Of a DNA stretch of 64,000 nt, positions 55,793 through 62,168 are shown in pieces. The position numbers and the translations under genes were made by a program. Each line of letters opens with the position of its first letter. The first letter of the stretch is position 1. The notes under the pieces are model-generated. The model searched no databases, had not been told where the DNA came from, and saw nothing but the letters and a program-made list of their open reading frames with translations. Where the stretch lies: NCBI RefSeq assembly GCF_054482595.1, contig NZ_CM137008.1. One strand, 5' to 3'.

Positions 55793-56389
55793 TTAATCCG
55801 ATCTCCGCTGCAACAGTTTCGCCATATTAATCGACTCGACCAGCTGTGTCCGGTTGATCCGGGGTGAGTTGAGATCCATCACTTTTTGCCATAGTTCGAT
55901 GGCTTGCGCGTAATTCGCCTGCATAAACGCATCGGAAGCCAGCAGCATCAGAGCGGTGATTTCGTTAGAGTCCAGCGCGAGGGCTTTGTCGATCATTGCG
56001 CGAGTCTGGGCGGTCATATGCTGGCTGGCCTGGTAATAAAGCACCGTCGCCAGCGCCGCATACAGTTCAGCGTTCTCACCACGTAGTTGCAACGCCTGAC
56101 GGTACGCCAGCAGCGAATTGCTGTAATCGTTTTGCCACAGATAGTACTCGCCCAGTAGCGCCCATTGTTCGCTGTTTTGTGGATTAGCGCGGATTTTATC
56201 CTGCAATGCCTGAAGCTGCGCTTCCGGGGTTTGCTGGCTGGCAAACTGATGTAGCGGATCGCGCTGACGCTGGTACTCCGCACGTACCGCCTGCCATTTT
56301 GGGCTTAACAGATAACTGCCGACACAGAGGAATACCATCAATATCGTGAGTGTTGTCAGCATTTTCACCGGTATTTGAGGCCGTTTCAT
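55793..56389 (-). CDS. nrfG: TPR-repeat heme lyase accessory protein NrfG
   Basis: 198 aa from ATG at 56389 ([20 protein letters not shown]...); TPR repeats. Confidence 0.88.
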
Positions 56390-56769
56390 CGCTTCGCCCT
56401 CACTCGCCAGAGGATCAGTGCCATCAGCAGTAACAACACCACTGGCAGCGCCCACAACACCAGCGTCTGACCCGTTAACGGTGGGTTATAGCGAACAAAA
56501 TCTCCGTAGCGTTCGGTCATCCAGCCAATGATTTCGACTTCACTTTTCCCCTCCGCCACCATGCTGTAAACCTGATGGCGCATACTGACTGCCACCGGCG
56601 CGTTGGATTCCAGTAAGTTTTGATTCTGGCACTGCGGACAACGTAACTGGCTGGCAATATTTAACGCCTGTTGCTGTTGTTGCGGATTGGCGAATTGCCA
56701 GGTGTCTACAACCTGAGCGCGCGCAAAACAGGTAAATAACAGCAGTAGCGTGAGAAGTCCTTTATTCAT
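56386..56769 (-). CDS. nrfF: cytochrome c-type biogenesis protein NrfF (CcmH-like)
   Basis: 127 aa; CPQC motif ([10 protein letters not shown]). Confidence 0.88.
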
Positions 56770-58420
56770 CGCGCTTCCTCCCCCGCCATCCGCTTAACAA
56801 TGCGCCCGCAATCATCAACAATCCTCCCCCCCAGATCCAGCGCACACCGCTTTGTACATACAAACGAAAAGCGTAACGATCCGGCCCAGTTTTCTCCCCC
56901 ATGACCGCATACCAGTCATGGATGCCGTTCCAGCGAATTGACGGTTCCATCATTTGCTGACGGCGTGCTTCATAAAAACGCCGCTCCGGCGTCAGTTCAC
57001 CAATACGTTGCTGATGGTCAAACAGTGCCACTATCGCTTTTTCGCTGGTGTAATTGCCTCTGGCTTGCAGATCGAGGCGCTCAAAACGGAAGGTGTATCC
57101 TGCCAGCGTCACCTGCTGACCCGGCTGTAAATTCAGGCTGATTTCCTGACGGCTGACGCTGGAAACCACGACCCCAGCGGCAAATAACAGCACGCCCGCA
57201 TGAGCTACCAGCGCCGGAAGCTGCACGCGTTTGCCAGAGACAAACGTCGCCAGCACAATCACCACCAACATCAACAGACCAAACGGTAACGTCGCGCGGT
57301 TAAAATACGGTGCGCCAACGGAGAGGCGTCCCCAGCCCAGCAGGCCGTAAATCATCGGATAAAGCGTTCCCACCAGCACGATCAGTAGCACTGCGCAAAA
57401 CAGCAACAGCGTAGCGAGGATTAACATTTCCCGCGATAACCCCGAAAAACGCACCGCCGGGCCACCGTCCCGCGCTCGCCAGCCATACAGAGCCAGAGAC
57501 GCAAGGCTAATCAGTACAAACAGACTGAACAACGGCACGGCGCGGACGTTATCCAGCGCGAACGCATGAACCGAAACCAGAATGCCAGAACGGACAATTA
57601 AGGTGCCCAGCAGCGACAGCATCAGAGTAACTATCGCCAGTAACAGCGACCAGTGGCGAAAAATCCCCCGCTGGCGTGTCAGGGATAAACTGTGCAGCAG
57701 CGCAGTGGCAGAAAGCCAGGGTAATAAAGAGGCGTTTTCCACCGGATCCCAGAACCACCAGCCGCCCCAGCCCAGTTCGCAATAGGCCCACCAGGAACCG
57801 AGGATGATCCCCGCCGTTAATGCGCTCCAGCCAGGTAGTGCCCAACGCCAGCAAATTCGGGCGCAGGCCGCATCAAACTCGCCGCGCAGTAAACTCGCCA
57901 GCACCACGCTCGCCGCTACCATCAAACCGCCATAGCCAAGGTAAAGCAGCGGTGGATGAAAGATAAGACCGGGATGTTGCAGCATCGGATTGAGATCGCG
58001 GCCTTCGATTGCTGGTGGAAATATCCGCACGAAGGGATCGGACCACAGCACCACAAACAGTAGCAGTGCGGCGAGCATGAGAGATAAAACGGCTAACGTC
58101 AGCGGAAATAGCGGATCGGTTTGCTGCCGATAATGCCAGGCAAACAGCGCGCTCCAGGCGGAAAGCAGCAGCACCCAAAGCAGCAGCGAACCTTCATGGC
58201 CGCCCCACACCGCTGCCAGCTTGAGTTCCCACGACAGCAGGCTGTAGCTATGTTGCGCGACATAAATGACCGAGAAATCGCTGATGAGAAAACAATACGT
58301 CAGTACGCCAAAGGCGAGCAGCTGGAGCGCGAACTGCGCCAGAATGCCGACGCAAGTGAGTCGCATCATGGCAGGCCAGCGCAACCGCACTCCCGCAAAG
58401 GCCGTCAACGGGGTCAACAC
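56762..58420 (-). CDS. nrfE: heme lyase NrfE (CcmF-like)
   Basis: Large polytopic CcmF-type protein; the track ORF starts at a TTG at 58441; a GTG at 58420 gives the 552 aa length I recall for NrfE; start uncertain. Confidence 0.8.
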   Translation of the reverse strand: MLTPLTAFAGVRLRWPAMMRLTCVGILAQFALQLLAFGVLTYCFLISDFSVIYVAQHSYSLLSWELKLAAVWGGHEGSLLLWVLLLSAWSALFAWHYRQQTDPLFPLTLAVLSLMLAALLLFVVLWSDPFVRIFPPAIEGRDLNPMLQHPGLIFHPPLLYLGYGGLMVAASVVLASLLRGEFDAACARICWRWALPGWSALTAGIILGSWWAYCELGWGGWWFWDPVENASLLPWLSATALLHSLSLTRQRGIFRHWSLLLAIVTLMLSLLGTLIVRSGILVSVHAFALDNVRAVPLFSLFVLISLASLALYGWRARDGGPAVRFSGLSREMLILATLLLFCAVLLIVLVGTLYPMIYGLLGWGRLSVGAPYFNRATLPFGLLMLVVIVLATFVSGKRVQLPALVAHAGVLLFAAGVVVSSVSRQEISLNLQPGQQVTLAGYTFRFERLDLQARGNYTSEKAIVALFDHQQRIGELTPERRFYEARRQQMMEPSIRWNGIHDWYAVMGEKTGPDRYAFRLYVQSGVRWIWGGGLLMIAGALLSGWRGRKRDE

Positions 58421-58499
58421 ATTGACCCCGAGACTTAACAACAGCGCCAGAAAACCGACTTCAGGAAGGAATACGTCCAGAAACCACCTCTGTTCTGGC

Positions 58500-60124: not shown

Positions 60125-60687
60125 GGCTGCTCCTTAAGCAACGGAACAGACGCCGGGTTAAAGTTCGGATTGGTGCGCTGATCGCTGTGGCAATCGACGC
60201 AAATCTTAATCCGTCCTTTGTCACTTAACGTCTGCATCGTATCTTGCTGTGGATGCAGGGAATGGCAGCTGGCGCACGCCACTTTGGTTACGTGGACATC
60301 GTGCGGCCAGAACGCTTTTTGCAACTGTTCCGGCAGATGGCAGGACATACAGACGCTGTTCTGCTCTCCAACCTTGTACATCGGCTCGTTAAAGCGCATC
60401 ACATCTTTCACCCCTTCGCGGTGTTGCGGTGATGGCTGGCCGTGACAGTTGGTGCAGGTGACCGGCAGTTTGTTATTCGGGTTGATAACGGAAGCATGTT
60501 TGCCATGCATACCTTCGGTATCTGGCTTATGACAGTCCAGACAGGCGGCATCCGGGTTACGCTGCTGGGTAACTTCGTAGCGATCATCAGATGCCTGCGC
60601 CGCAGGGGTAGCGGTAATTCCGTTCAGGCTCCACAACAGGCCCGACGCCAGCACCCCGGCAGTTAATAACGAACGTAATACGCTCAT
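60121..60687 (-). CDS. nrfB: pentaheme cytochrome c NrfB
   Basis: 188 aa from ATG at 60687; five CxxCH motifs (CLDCH, CTNCH, CMSCH, CASCH, CVDCH). Confidence 0.9.
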
Positions 60688-60731
60688 ATTCACTCCATTG
60701 TGTTTTCCGCCCCTTGCGAGGCGGAACGGGG

Positions 60732-62168
60732 TTATTGGCTTAACAAACCGTTTTTACGTGCCTGCTCTTCCCACTGCGGGATCACCGTTTTGATGAAGTC
60801 CTGCTTCTCGGCCTTGATTTGTTCCATGTTCAGGCCAATGGCCTGCTGGGCTTTCTCTTTGGTTGAGATATCCGGGATCTGGATTTCATGGGTGATGCCT
60901 TTGGTCGCCAGCAGGCGCGCCAGTTTGGTGCGTGCATCCGCCGCTTTATCCATCGCCGTACCGAGCATCCTCAGACCTTCTTCCGGTGCGTGCATATGAA
61001 TGCCGTGGGAAGCGATCGCCAGATCCCAACGCCACTGGGCATGACGGATATCGTCCTGAATCGGCTTCATTTCGGCTTCCGTCGCGCCTGCATCCAGCGC
61101 TGCTTTCGCTTCGAAGTGAGCGTGAACCAGTTGATCTTCAACCTTGATTTTCAGGTCGTTAATCGACTGCTTACGTTCCGCGACCACTTTTTGCAAGGCA
61201 GCTTTATCCTGGGTATGGCAGTTCGCACAAGTCTGGGCGAAGTTATCAAACGGATTACCAATTTTATGGTCGGTGTAGAGTTTGCCTTCGGCGTTCTGCA
61301 CTTTTGGCATATGGCAGTCGATACAGGTCACGTTGTTTTTACCGTGAATGCCCGCTGTCCAGGTTTCATATTCCGGGTGCTGCGCTTTCAGCATTGGCGT
61401 TTTCGACAGGGAGTTAGTCCAGTCAGAGAAGGCAATTTTGTCGTAATACTGCTCCATATTTTCGACTTTCATGCCGTCATCCCACGGGAATTTAACCGCT
61501 TTGTTTTTGCCGTCGAAGTAATACTCCACATGGCACTGACCGCAAACCATCGATTGCTGGTCGAAACGTCCGGCTTTCTCAAAAGGTTTACCAATGGCTT
61601 CCATCGCGCGAGCCGCATACGGACGGGAAAGGGTTAACTCCGGTTTGCCTTTGGCGAACTCTGGTGAGGCGGTGTTATGGCAGTCGGCACAACCTAAGTT
61701 GTTGACGATTTCCGGGCCGCCGCGCGCCCATTTACCGTGGAAGTAGCCATCTTCGCCGTCTTTCTGGATCAGACGCGCCACATCCGGGCTTTTACAACTC
61801 CAGCACGCCATCGGTAGCGGACCATCTTCAGCGTTTTTCGGCGCACCGGTACGCAGGGTTTCACGCACATCGGTCACAGCAAAGGCATGTCCACGCGGCT
61901 TGTTGTAATCGCGCGAGAAGGGATACCCCGCCCACAGGATCACCAGCCGTGGATCTTCCGCCAGGGCGTCAACACGCTCTGACTGTTCCGAGGTGGCTTT
62001 CCAGGAGAGATATTGATCGGGATGCTGCGGGGCAAAGGTTTCATTCTTCGCTTCCACAGTTACAGCTTTTGCGGGAGCAGCCGTTTGTTCAGCGTGAACA
62101 GAAGTGAAAAAGAAAAAAGGAATCAATAAGCTGAAGATACGGCGTGCGTTTATTTTTATCCTTGTCAT
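60732..62168 (-). CDS. nrfA: cytochrome c552 nitrite reductase
   Basis: 478 aa from ATG at 62168 ([12 protein letters not shown]...); CWSCK heme motif plus CxxCH motifs. Confidence 0.92.

What the first reader, a model, noticed from the sequence alone, without database searches (positions are those of the whole stretch)
55793..62168. nrf operon encodes both the CWSCK heme site and its dedicated lyase genes
NrfA contains the atypical lysine-ligated heme motif CWSCK alongside standard CxxCH sites, and the operon carries its own CcmF/CcmH-like genes (nrfE, nrfF, nrfG), as expected for attaching heme to the CxxCK site. All seven genes appear intact, with translational coupling (4-bp or 8-bp overlaps) at nrfC/B, nrfD/C, nrfF/E and nrfG/F. 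This is established biology, included as a completeness check.
Basis: established knowledge. Interest (0 to 1): 0.2.

Follow-up and report, generated by a model that had tools for sequence, protein, structure and literature searches.

The report
Intact E. coli nrfABCDEFG nitrite-reductase operon

Summary
Observation confirmed and interpretation supported; it is already known. Window 55793-62168 (minus strand) is the E. coli nrfABCDEFG operon, 100% identical to several sequenced strains and present in 5414 of 5426 complete E. coli genomes. All seven genes have the same length as in K-12, with no internal stops. Each matches its NCBIfam model essentially end to end and above the curated cut-off. 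NrfA has CWSCK (residues 122-126) plus four CxxCH. NrfB has five CxxCH. NrfE keeps the CcmF WWD motif and all four conserved histidines. NrfF has CPQC. NrfG is the TPR paralogue of the CcmH C-terminus. The 4-, 4-, 8- and 4-nt overlaps at B/C, C/D, E/F and F/G are exact. That NrfEFG serve the CxxCK haem rests on published genetics, not on anything tested here.

One addition. No ATG, GTG or TTG sits at the real N-terminus of nrfE. Homology to CcmF TM1, a conserved Shine-Dalgarno, in-frame stops two codons upstream in Salmonella, Citrobacter and Enterobacter, and a TTG at the same codon in Providencia all point to CTG 58480 as the start (572 aa). PGAP already annotates this; K-12 NC_000913.3 annotates a GTG 20 codons downstream (552 aa). 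Low interest overall.

The parts
60732..62168 (-). nrfA, pentahaem cytochrome c552 nitrite reductase (478 aa), ATG start
   Evidence: Annotation. NF008339 871.6 bits against a cut-off of 595; PF02335. One amino-acid difference from K-12 (P35A).
61791..61805 (-). Codons for CWSCK (NrfA residues 122-126), the lysine-ligated active-site haem motif
   Evidence: Motif scan. Role taken from the literature.
60706..60725 (-). Conserved 8-bp hairpin with a GNRA loop (UCCGCCUC-GCAA-GGGGCGGA) in the 44-nt nrfA-nrfB spacer. No U-tract follows. Possibly an mRNA 3' stabiliser or partial attenuator (inference).
   Evidence: Fold of 66 nt gives -20 kcal/mol, z = -2.1. Conserved in E. albertii, Citrobacter and Enterobacter with loops GCAA, GUAA and GCGA; a U-to-C change turns a G.U pair into G-C.
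60121..60687 (-). nrfB, pentahaem cytochrome (188 aa), five CxxCH motifs
   Evidence: NF008659 311 bits against a cut-off of 184. Identical protein to K-12.
59453..60124 (-). nrfC, Fe-S subunit (223 aa) with 16 Cys and the Tat motif SRRQFL; overlaps nrfB by 4 nt
   Evidence: (TIGR03149 418.7 bits against a cut-off of 377.6).
58500..59456 (-). nrfD, integral membrane quinol-interacting subunit (318 aa); overlaps nrfC by 4 nt
   Evidence: TIGR03148 466 bits against a cut-off of 347.6.
58485..58490 (-). Shine-Dalgarno GAGGTG ahead of the nrfE CTG start
   Evidence: Sequence. The equivalent AAGGTGAT sits at the same spacing in Citrobacter, Enterobacter, Salmonella and Providencia.
56762..58480 (-). 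nrfE, CcmF-type haem lyase. 572 aa if it starts at CTG 58480-58478 (PGAP); K-12 annotates GTG at 58420 (552 aa); the first canonical codon in the frame is TTG 58441.
   Evidence: (NF007691: residues 2-572 against profile 1-573, 1159 bits).
56386..56769 (-). nrfF, paralogue of the CcmH N-terminal domain (127 aa) with a CPQC motif at residue 44; overlaps nrfE by 8 nt
   Evidence: TIGR03147 209.6 bits against a cut-off of 159.2; 40% identity to CcmH 4-120.
55793..56389 (-). nrfG, TPR protein (198 aa), paralogue of the CcmH C-terminus (CcmI); overlaps nrfF by 4 nt
   Evidence: PF23914; NF007692 398.7 bits against a cut-off of 306.

Best explanation
The region is the standard, functional-looking E. 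coli nrfABCDEFG operon on the minus strand, between acs (divergent) and gltP. NrfA is the periplasmic pentahaem nitrite reductase; its active-site haem is bound at CWSCK with Lys126 as the axial ligand. NrfB (pentahaem), NrfC (four Fe-S clusters, Tat-exported) and NrfD (membrane quinol dehydrogenase subunit) pass electrons from menaquinol to NrfA. The general Ccm system attaches haem to the nine CxxCH sites. NrfE (a CcmF paralogue with the WWD motif and four His), NrfF (a CcmH-N paralogue with CPQC) and NrfG (a TPR protein that binds apo-NrfA) form a dedicated lyase for the CxxCK site. Shown here: gene identities, intactness, motifs, overlaps and paralogy. Taken from the literature: the enzymology and the requirement for NrfEFG. 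Inferred: translational coupling at the four overlaps. Sub-claim, about 0.8 probability: nrfE is translated from the conserved CTG at 58480, 19 nt after the nrfD stop and behind a strong Shine-Dalgarno. This gives a 572-aa protein that includes TM1. Because CUG initiates at only about 1-2% of AUG in reporter assays, it probably keeps the lyase at a low level relative to NrfABCD.
For: The region is 100% identical to several E. coli chromosomes, and 5414 of 5426 genomes carry at least 80% of it. RefSeq annotation gives the seven genes at exactly these coordinates. All genes match K-12 in length with no internal stops, and the motifs and overlaps were verified. Pfam and NCBIfam hits are all above the curated cut-offs and essentially full-length. 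NrfE against CcmF: 37% identity, E = 3e-114, aligned from NrfE 'LPEVG' to CcmF residue 2 'MPEIG'; the WWD motif is identical and His173/261/303/491 are conserved. NrfF and NrfG align with the N- and C-terminal parts of CcmH. Reviews state that NrfEFG are required for the CXXCK haem. For the CTG start: there is no canonical codon between the in-frame stop at 58511-58513 and TTG 58441. Across about 60 loci the family N-terminus is M-x-P-E-x-G. CTG plus the Shine-Dalgarno is conserved in E. albertii, Citrobacter (two loci), Enterobacter and Salmonella, and in all of these except E. albertii an in-frame TGA lies two codons upstream. Providencia has TTG at the same codon. The downstream GTG and TTG are not conserved. 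Of the 20 intervening codons, 8 vary only synonymously and 3 vary conservatively, and they hold the hydrophobic peak that matches CcmF TM1. PGAP calls the 1719-nt gene even on a K-12-lineage genome. CUG efficiency is about 1-2% of AUG.
Against: Nothing argues against the operon identity. For function, nothing here measures expression, haem attachment or coupling. No intrinsic terminator was detected after nrfG, and the sigma-70 scan did not pick up the FNR-dependent nrf promoter. For the CTG start: CTG and TTG are both leucine codons, so their conservation alone does not prove initiation. No N-terminal peptide or ribosome-profiling evidence was found. The curated K-12 record and the 552-aa protein derived from it use the downstream GTG.
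Confidence: 0.96

Rival explanations
1. nrfE initiates at a downstream canonical codon (GTG 58420 as in the K-12 reference, or TTG 58441), giving a 552- or 559-aa protein. On this view the conserved upstream 13-20 codons are untranslated.
For: NC_000913.3 annotates GTG, 552 aa. TTG 58441 is the first canonical codon in the ORF. CUG is an inefficient initiator.
Against: These starts would cut through the helix homologous to CcmF TM1, and removing one TM helix would invert the membrane topology. GTG is CTG in Enterobacter L007 and TTG 58441 is TTA in Citrobacter L005 and Salmonella. No good Shine-Dalgarno precedes either codon. The upstream codons show mainly synonymous variation. The NCBIfam NrfE profile aligns from residue 2 of the 572-aa form.
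Confidence: 0.15
2. The nrfE N-terminus is supplied by recoding. Either a +1 shift occurs from the out-of-frame GTG at 58487 inside the Shine-Dalgarno, or a frameshift from nrfD produces an NrfD-NrfE fusion.
For: An out-of-frame GTG is conserved in E. coli (GAGGTGG) and in Citrobacter and Salmonella (AAGGTGAT). It opens an 8-codon ORF that ends in a TGA overlapping the nrfE PE codons.
Against: That GTG has no Shine-Dalgarno of its own and is itself the core of the Shine-Dalgarno. No slippery sequence of the prfB type is present at the TGA. In Citrobacter, Enterobacter, Salmonella and Providencia an in-frame TGA lies between the nrfD stop and the CTG/TTG, so shifting from nrfD cannot reach nrfE.
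Confidence: 0.02
3. The operon is a decayed or non-functional copy: pseudogenised lyase genes, or genes redundant with ccmFH.
For: NrfE, NrfF and NrfG differ from K-12 more than NrfA-D do: 10, 2 and 4 amino-acid changes against 1, 0, 0 and 0. Shewanella manages CXXCK without nrfEFG.
Against: There are no stops or length changes, and all catalytic motifs are kept. The genes are conserved in essentially all E. coli genomes. Literature shows the E. coli NrfEFG requirement.
Confidence: 0.02

Closest known systems
E. coli K-12 nrfABCDEFG operon (b4070-b4076)
   Same: Same gene order, neighbours (acs, ytcB, gltP), gene lengths, haem motifs and overlaps. About 98-99% nucleotide identity. NrfB, NrfC and NrfD proteins are identical.
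   Different: Only allelic differences: 17 amino-acid substitutions in total, 16 of them in NrfE, NrfF and NrfG. The K-12 record starts nrfE at a GTG 60 nt downstream of the CTG that PGAP uses for this and other strains. That is an annotation difference, not a sequence difference.
System I cytochrome c synthase CcmF/CcmH (E. coli ccmFH)
   Same: NrfE shares the WWD motif, four conserved His and the TM1 'PExG' N-terminus with CcmF. NrfF corresponds to CcmH-N (CxxC motif) and NrfG to the CcmH-C TPR domain.
   Different: NrfE is about 75 aa shorter, lacking roughly CcmF residues 406-488. NrfF and NrfG are separate proteins. Specificity is for CxxCK rather than CxxCH (literature). ccmF uses ATG; enteric nrfE uses CTG.
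nrfE of Aliivibrio, Haemophilus and Providencia
   Same: Orthologous lyase genes. In Aliivibrio and Providencia they lie directly after nrfD; the Haemophilus locus has no nrfD upstream.
   Different: They start with canonical codons: ATG 'MIAEIG' in Aliivibrio, ATG 'MLPELG' in Haemophilus and TTG 'MEIFLPEIG' in Providencia. Escherichia, Salmonella, Citrobacter and Enterobacter have CTG.
Known non-AUG/GUG/UUG starts in E. coli (infC and pcnB, both AUU; from my own knowledge)
   Same: A near-cognate start codon behind a good Shine-Dalgarno, expected to give low, IF3-sensitive initiation.
   Different: Those cases are experimentally verified and infC is autoregulatory. The nrfE CTG is supported here only by comparative sequence evidence.

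Membership tests
NrfA ammonia-forming cytochrome c nitrite reductase (NF008339 / TIGR03152 / PF02335) | Full-length match above the curated cut-off | tested here: met
   871.6 bits against 595; residues 5-477 against profile 2-484 of 487.
NrfA ammonia-forming cytochrome c nitrite reductase (NF008339 / TIGR03152 / PF02335) | Five haem sites: one CxxCK plus four CxxCH | tested here: met
   CWSCK at 122; CADCH at 160, CGQCH at 209, CIDCH at 282, CANCH at 314.
NrfA ammonia-forming cytochrome c nitrite reductase (NF008339 / TIGR03152 / PF02335) | Nitrite-to-ammonium catalytic activity with a Lys-ligated haem | not testable with these tools
   Literature only.
NrfB pentahaem cytochrome (NF008659) | Five CxxCH motifs and a full-length profile match | tested here: met
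   Five motifs. 311 bits against 184; residues 1-187 against profile 1-187 of 188.
NrfC Fe-S subunit (TIGR03149) | Four Cys clusters (16 Cys), a twin-arginine signal, and a profile match above cut-off | tested here: met
   16 Cys in four groups of four; SRRQFL motif. 418.7 bits against 377.6.
NrfD membrane subunit (TIGR03148 / PF03916) | Full-length profile match above cut-off | tested here: met
   466 bits against 347.6; residues 5-318 against profile 1-316 of 316.
CcmF/NrfE haem lyase (NF007691, TIGR00353, PF01578 + PF16327) | WWD motif and four conserved histidines (two TM-His, two P-His) | tested here: met
   WGGWWFWDPVENAS at 238. H175, H263, H305 and H427 align with CcmF H173, H261, H303 and H491.
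CcmF/NrfE haem lyase (NF007691, TIGR00353, PF01578 + PF16327) | Full-length protein including the N-terminal TM1 ('PExG') | tested here: met
   Met only with the CTG start: residues 2-572 against profile 1-573 of 573; TM1 alignment. The K-12 552-aa form would lack it.
CcmF/NrfE haem lyase (NF007691, TIGR00353, PF01578 + PF16327) | Specificity for the CxxCK site of NrfA | not testable with these tools
   Eaves et al. 1998, via reviews. Supported by context: nrfE lies immediately downstream of nrfABCD.
NrfF / CcmH N-domain (TIGR03147, PF03918) | CxxC redox motif and a profile match above cut-off | tested here: met
   RCPQC at 43-47. 209.6 bits against 159.2. 40% identity to CcmH 4-120.
NrfG / CcmI-type TPR protein (NF007692, PF23914) | TPR domain of the CcmH/CycH type and a profile match above cut-off | tested here: met
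   398.7 bits against 306. PF23914 68.5 bits against 42. Aligns with CcmH 210-334.
nrf operon organisation (enteric type, nrfABCDEFG) | Seven genes in the order A-G on one strand, with short overlaps or spacers | tested here: met
   The nrfC-G portion shows the same order in E. albertii, Citrobacter and Enterobacter.
nrf operon organisation (enteric type, nrfABCDEFG) | Translational coupling at the overlapping junctions | not testable with these tools
   Overlaps ATGA (three times) and ATGAATAA are present. Coupling itself is an inference.

The most novel reading that the evidence does not exclude
In Escherichia, Salmonella, Citrobacter and Enterobacter, the haem lyase gene nrfE is initiated at a conserved CUG codon 8-19 nt after the nrfD stop. 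This would be one of very few natural non-AUG/GUG/UUG starts in E. coli. The K-12 reference protein (552 aa) would then be annotated 20 residues too short and lack TM1. The weak codon, possibly used by ribosomes terminating at nrfD and sensitive to IF3, would set a low lyase-to-reductase ratio.
Probability: 0.75. Interest if true: 0.3.

Novelty: already known. Interest (0 to 1): 0.12.

Why it matters
As a completeness check it shows that this strain has the full, undamaged machinery for respiratory nitrite ammonification, including the special lyase for the lysine-ligated haem. Nothing new follows for the field. The practical by-product concerns people who clone or model E. coli NrfE from the K-12/UniProt 552-aa entry. 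They are probably working with a protein that lacks its first transmembrane helix, so the 572-aa CTG-start form that PGAP already uses should be preferred. A verified CUG start would also add a natural example to the very short list of non-canonical initiation codons in E. coli.

Tried and rejected
1. Looked for frameshifts or premature stops by codon-by-codon comparison with K-12; found none.

2. Considered a +1 frameshift from the out-of-frame GTG inside the Shine-Dalgarno, and an NrfD-NrfE fusion. Rejected: there is no slippery site, the GTG has no Shine-Dalgarno of its own, and in-frame TGA codons lie upstream of the CTG/TTG in four other genera.

3. Three literature searches for the nrfE start codon (nrfE with 'start codon', 'CTG' and 'CUG') gave nothing relevant. 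The original 1994-1998 papers are not in the searchable library.

4. The genome-contig scan returned mostly ccmF loci because of the shared WGGWWFWD pattern. Five loci have nrfE directly after nrfD (L004-L007, L028), plus one Haemophilus nrfE-type cluster without nrfD (L010).

5. A protein search with the N-terminal 120 aa returned mainly fragments. It was useful only for picking the Salmonella, Providencia and Logan contigs. The Logan contigs look error-prone (nrfD is split), so their apparent spacer deletion is given little weight.

6. The promoter/terminator scan found no minus-strand terminator after nrfG and did not detect the FNR-dependent nrf promoter; counts were at or below shuffle expectation. 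This is uninformative.

7. One malformed literature query was repeated.

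
Full report
IDENTITY AND COORDINATES. The 7-kb stretch 55500-62500 is 100% identical to several complete E. coli chromosomes. At least 80% of it is present in 5414 of 5426 complete E. coli genomes. The RefSeq annotation of an identical genome places seven genes on the minus strand (window = locus + 53999):
- nrfA 60732-62168
- nrfB 60121-60687
- nrfC 59453-60124
- nrfD 58500-59456
- nrfE 56762-58480
- nrfF 56386-56769
- nrfG 55793-56389

The operon is flanked by gltP (54138-55451, minus strand) and the divergent acs (from 62561, plus strand), as in K-12. The finder's interval 55793-62168 therefore runs exactly from the nrfG stop to the nrfA start.

THE OBSERVATION. A codon-level comparison with K-12 MG1655 shows that all seven genes have the same length and no internal stops. 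Nucleotide differences number 3-32 per gene. Amino-acid differences from K-12 are 1 (NrfA, P35A), 0, 0, 0, 10, 2 and 4 for NrfA to NrfG.
- NrfA has CWSCK at residues 122-126 and CxxCH at 160, 209, 282 and 314.
- NrfB has five CxxCH motifs.
- NrfF has CPQC.
- The overlaps are exactly as stated: B/C 4 nt, C/D 4 nt, E/F 8 nt, F/G 4 nt.
- The A/B junction is a 44-nt spacer, and D/E is a 19-nt spacer if nrfE starts at the PGAP position.

Every protein exceeds the curated Pfam and NCBIfam cut-offs and aligns essentially end to end with its equivalog or subfamily profile.

THE INTERPRETATION. NrfE aligns with E. coli CcmF over its whole length (37% identity, E = 3e-114). It keeps the WWD motif WGGWWFWDPVENAS and the four histidines equivalent to CcmF H173, H261, H303 and H491. 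It lacks about 62 residues corresponding roughly to CcmF 406-488. NrfF aligns with CcmH residues 4-120 (40% identity) and NrfG with CcmH residues 210-334. NrfC has 16 cysteines in four groups and a twin-arginine motif.

That NrfEFG are needed specifically for the CXXCK haem, while the Ccm system serves the CXXCH sites, is published genetics and biochemistry (Hussain 1994; Eaves 1998). Two reviews summarise it (PMC12285233; PMC3601427). The second review also notes a report that NrfF is not strictly essential, and the first notes that Shewanella matures a CXXCK NrfA without nrfEFG. None of this was, or could be, tested here. Translational coupling at the overlaps is a reasonable inference, not a demonstrated fact.

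THE ONE LOOSE END: WHERE nrfE STARTS. PGAP starts nrfE at 58480 (572 aa), but the ORF lister's first ATG/GTG/TTG in that frame is TTG 58441. The sequence after the nrfD stop reads TAA GCCAGAACA-GAGGTGG-TTT-CTG GAC GTA TTC CTT CCT GAA GTC GGT. The PGAP start is therefore a CTG behind a strong Shine-Dalgarno. K-12 NC_000913.3 has the same DNA but annotates a GTG 60 nt downstream (552 aa). PGAP annotation of a K-12-lineage genome and of strain 042 again gives the 1719-nt gene. The discrepancy is one of annotation, not sequence.

Evidence that the CTG, or at least this position, is the real start:
1. The NCBIfam NrfE model aligns residues 2-572 with profile positions 1-573.
2. BLASTP aligns NrfE 'LPEVGFLALLLSLG' with CcmF residues 2 onward, 'MPEIGNGLLCLALG', which is TM1. 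The Kyte-Doolittle peak at NrfE residues 10-22 mirrors the CcmF peak at 10-21. A start at GTG 58420 would bisect this helix.
3. Across about 60 CcmF/NrfE loci from diverse proteobacteria, the protein begins M-x-P-E-x-G with an ATG or GTG.
4. In E. albertii, two Citrobacter, one Enterobacter and Salmonella, the CTG and a Shine-Dalgarno (AAGGTGAT) at the same spacing are conserved. In all of these except E. albertii, an in-frame TGA lies two codons upstream, so CTG is the only near-cognate codon available before the conserved PExG.
5. The downstream canonical candidates are not conserved: the K-12 GTG is CTG in Enterobacter, and TTG 58441 is TTA in Citrobacter L005 and Salmonella.
6. Of the 20 codons between the CTG and the K-12 GTG, 8 vary only synonymously and 3 vary conservatively. 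Sequence upstream of the Shine-Dalgarno is not conserved between genera.
7. Providencia alcalifaciens has a canonical TTG at exactly the homologous codon, with the same Shine-Dalgarno and an upstream in-frame TGA. Aliivibrio nrfE (after nrfCD) and a Haemophilus nrfE-type gene use ATG.

Caveats: CTG and TTG are both leucine codons. I also found no experimental mapping of the start; three literature searches were negative. I put the CTG start at about 0.75-0.8.

Reporter measurements give CUG about 1-2% of AUG initiation in E. coli. The likely consequence is a deliberately low level of lyase relative to NrfABCD, possibly helped by ribosomes terminating 19 nt upstream at nrfD. This last part is inference.

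ALTERNATIVES CONSIDERED. A +1 shift from the out-of-frame GTG inside the Shine-Dalgarno, and an NrfD-NrfE frameshift fusion, were both considered. I rejected them: there is no slippery site, that GTG has no Shine-Dalgarno of its own, and in-frame TGA codons lie between the nrfD stop and the CTG/TTG in four genera.

COMPARISON WITH KNOWN SYSTEMS AND VERDICT. This is the textbook enteric nrf operon, already known in every respect the finder listed. The CTG start is already implemented in RefSeq/PGAP but is absent from the curated K-12 record, and as far as I could search it is not discussed in the open literature. It is a small reannotation point rather than new biology. Interest is 0.12. The most novel reading not excluded by the evidence is a conserved natural CUG start that tunes lyase stoichiometry, with probability about 0.75 and interest about 0.3 if verified.

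Noticed in passing
window 58478-58490 (minus strand): nrfE has no ATG, GTG or TTG at its homologous N-terminus. A conserved CTG behind a GAGGTG Shine-Dalgarno is the probable start (572 aa, as PGAP annotates). The K-12 reference uses a GTG 60 nt downstream (552 aa), which would remove TM1. Providencia has TTG at the same codon; Salmonella, Citrobacter and Enterobacter have CTG with an in-frame TGA two codons upstream.
   Followed up: yes
window 60706-60725 (minus strand), nrfA-nrfB spacer: A stable 8-bp hairpin with a GNRA tetraloop sits just after the nrfA stop, with no U-tract following. It is conserved in E. albertii, Citrobacter and Enterobacter, with loop variants GCAA, GUAA and GCGA and one G.U-to-G-C change. 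It may protect the nrfA 3' end or partly attenuate transcription, giving more NrfA than downstream products.
   Followed up: partly
window 62188-62206 (nrfA 5' leader; scored on the plus strand): An 8-bp hairpin (CGCCATTG-TTG-CAATGGCG) followed by a T-run on the plus strand, so it is terminator-like for transcription antisense to nrfA and heading towards acs. On the nrfA-sense strand it lies 20-38 nt upstream of the ATG and is preceded by an A-rich run. Function unknown.
   Followed up: no
window 62265-62321 (minus strand): The 18-aa small ORF ytcB (MHLQLIKDNIHSVVICYT), annotated in K-12 between acs and nrfA, is present and identical here. It lies in the acs-nrfA intergenic (regulatory) region, 97-153 nt upstream of the nrfA ATG.
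   Followed up: partly
window 55793-58480 compared with 58500-62168: Relative to K-12, the lyase genes carry 16 of the 17 amino-acid substitutions in the operon (NrfE 10, NrfF 2, NrfG 4), against 1 in NrfA-D combined, although nucleotide divergence is of similar order. This suggests weaker purifying selection on the lyase than on the reductase. Two of the differences are K-12 Cys against Arg here (NrfE 275 and 468 in 572-aa numbering).
   Followed up: no
L085 and L086 (Logan SRR16525254 and SRR16525275), nrfD-nrfE junction: In an unidentified enteric nrf locus (about 70% identity in NrfE), the nrfD-nrfE spacer with the Shine-Dalgarno is absent: the nrfD TAA is followed by T then CTG. A TTG three codons upstream of the CTG overlaps nrfD by 8 nt. 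The contigs carry apparent frameshifts (nrfD is split), so this may be an assembly artefact.
   Followed up: partly
window 55452-55792 (minus strand), nrfG-gltP spacer: No intrinsic-terminator-like hairpin was detected after nrfG in this AT-rich 340-nt spacer. Only a weak promoter-like site was found (55735-55706), presumably for gltP.
   Followed up: no
summary (whole E. coli collection): The 7-kb query has a median of two megablast places per genome and five places on plasmids. The second place is probably the near-identical WWD-motif segment shared with ccmF, but this was not checked.
   Followed up: no
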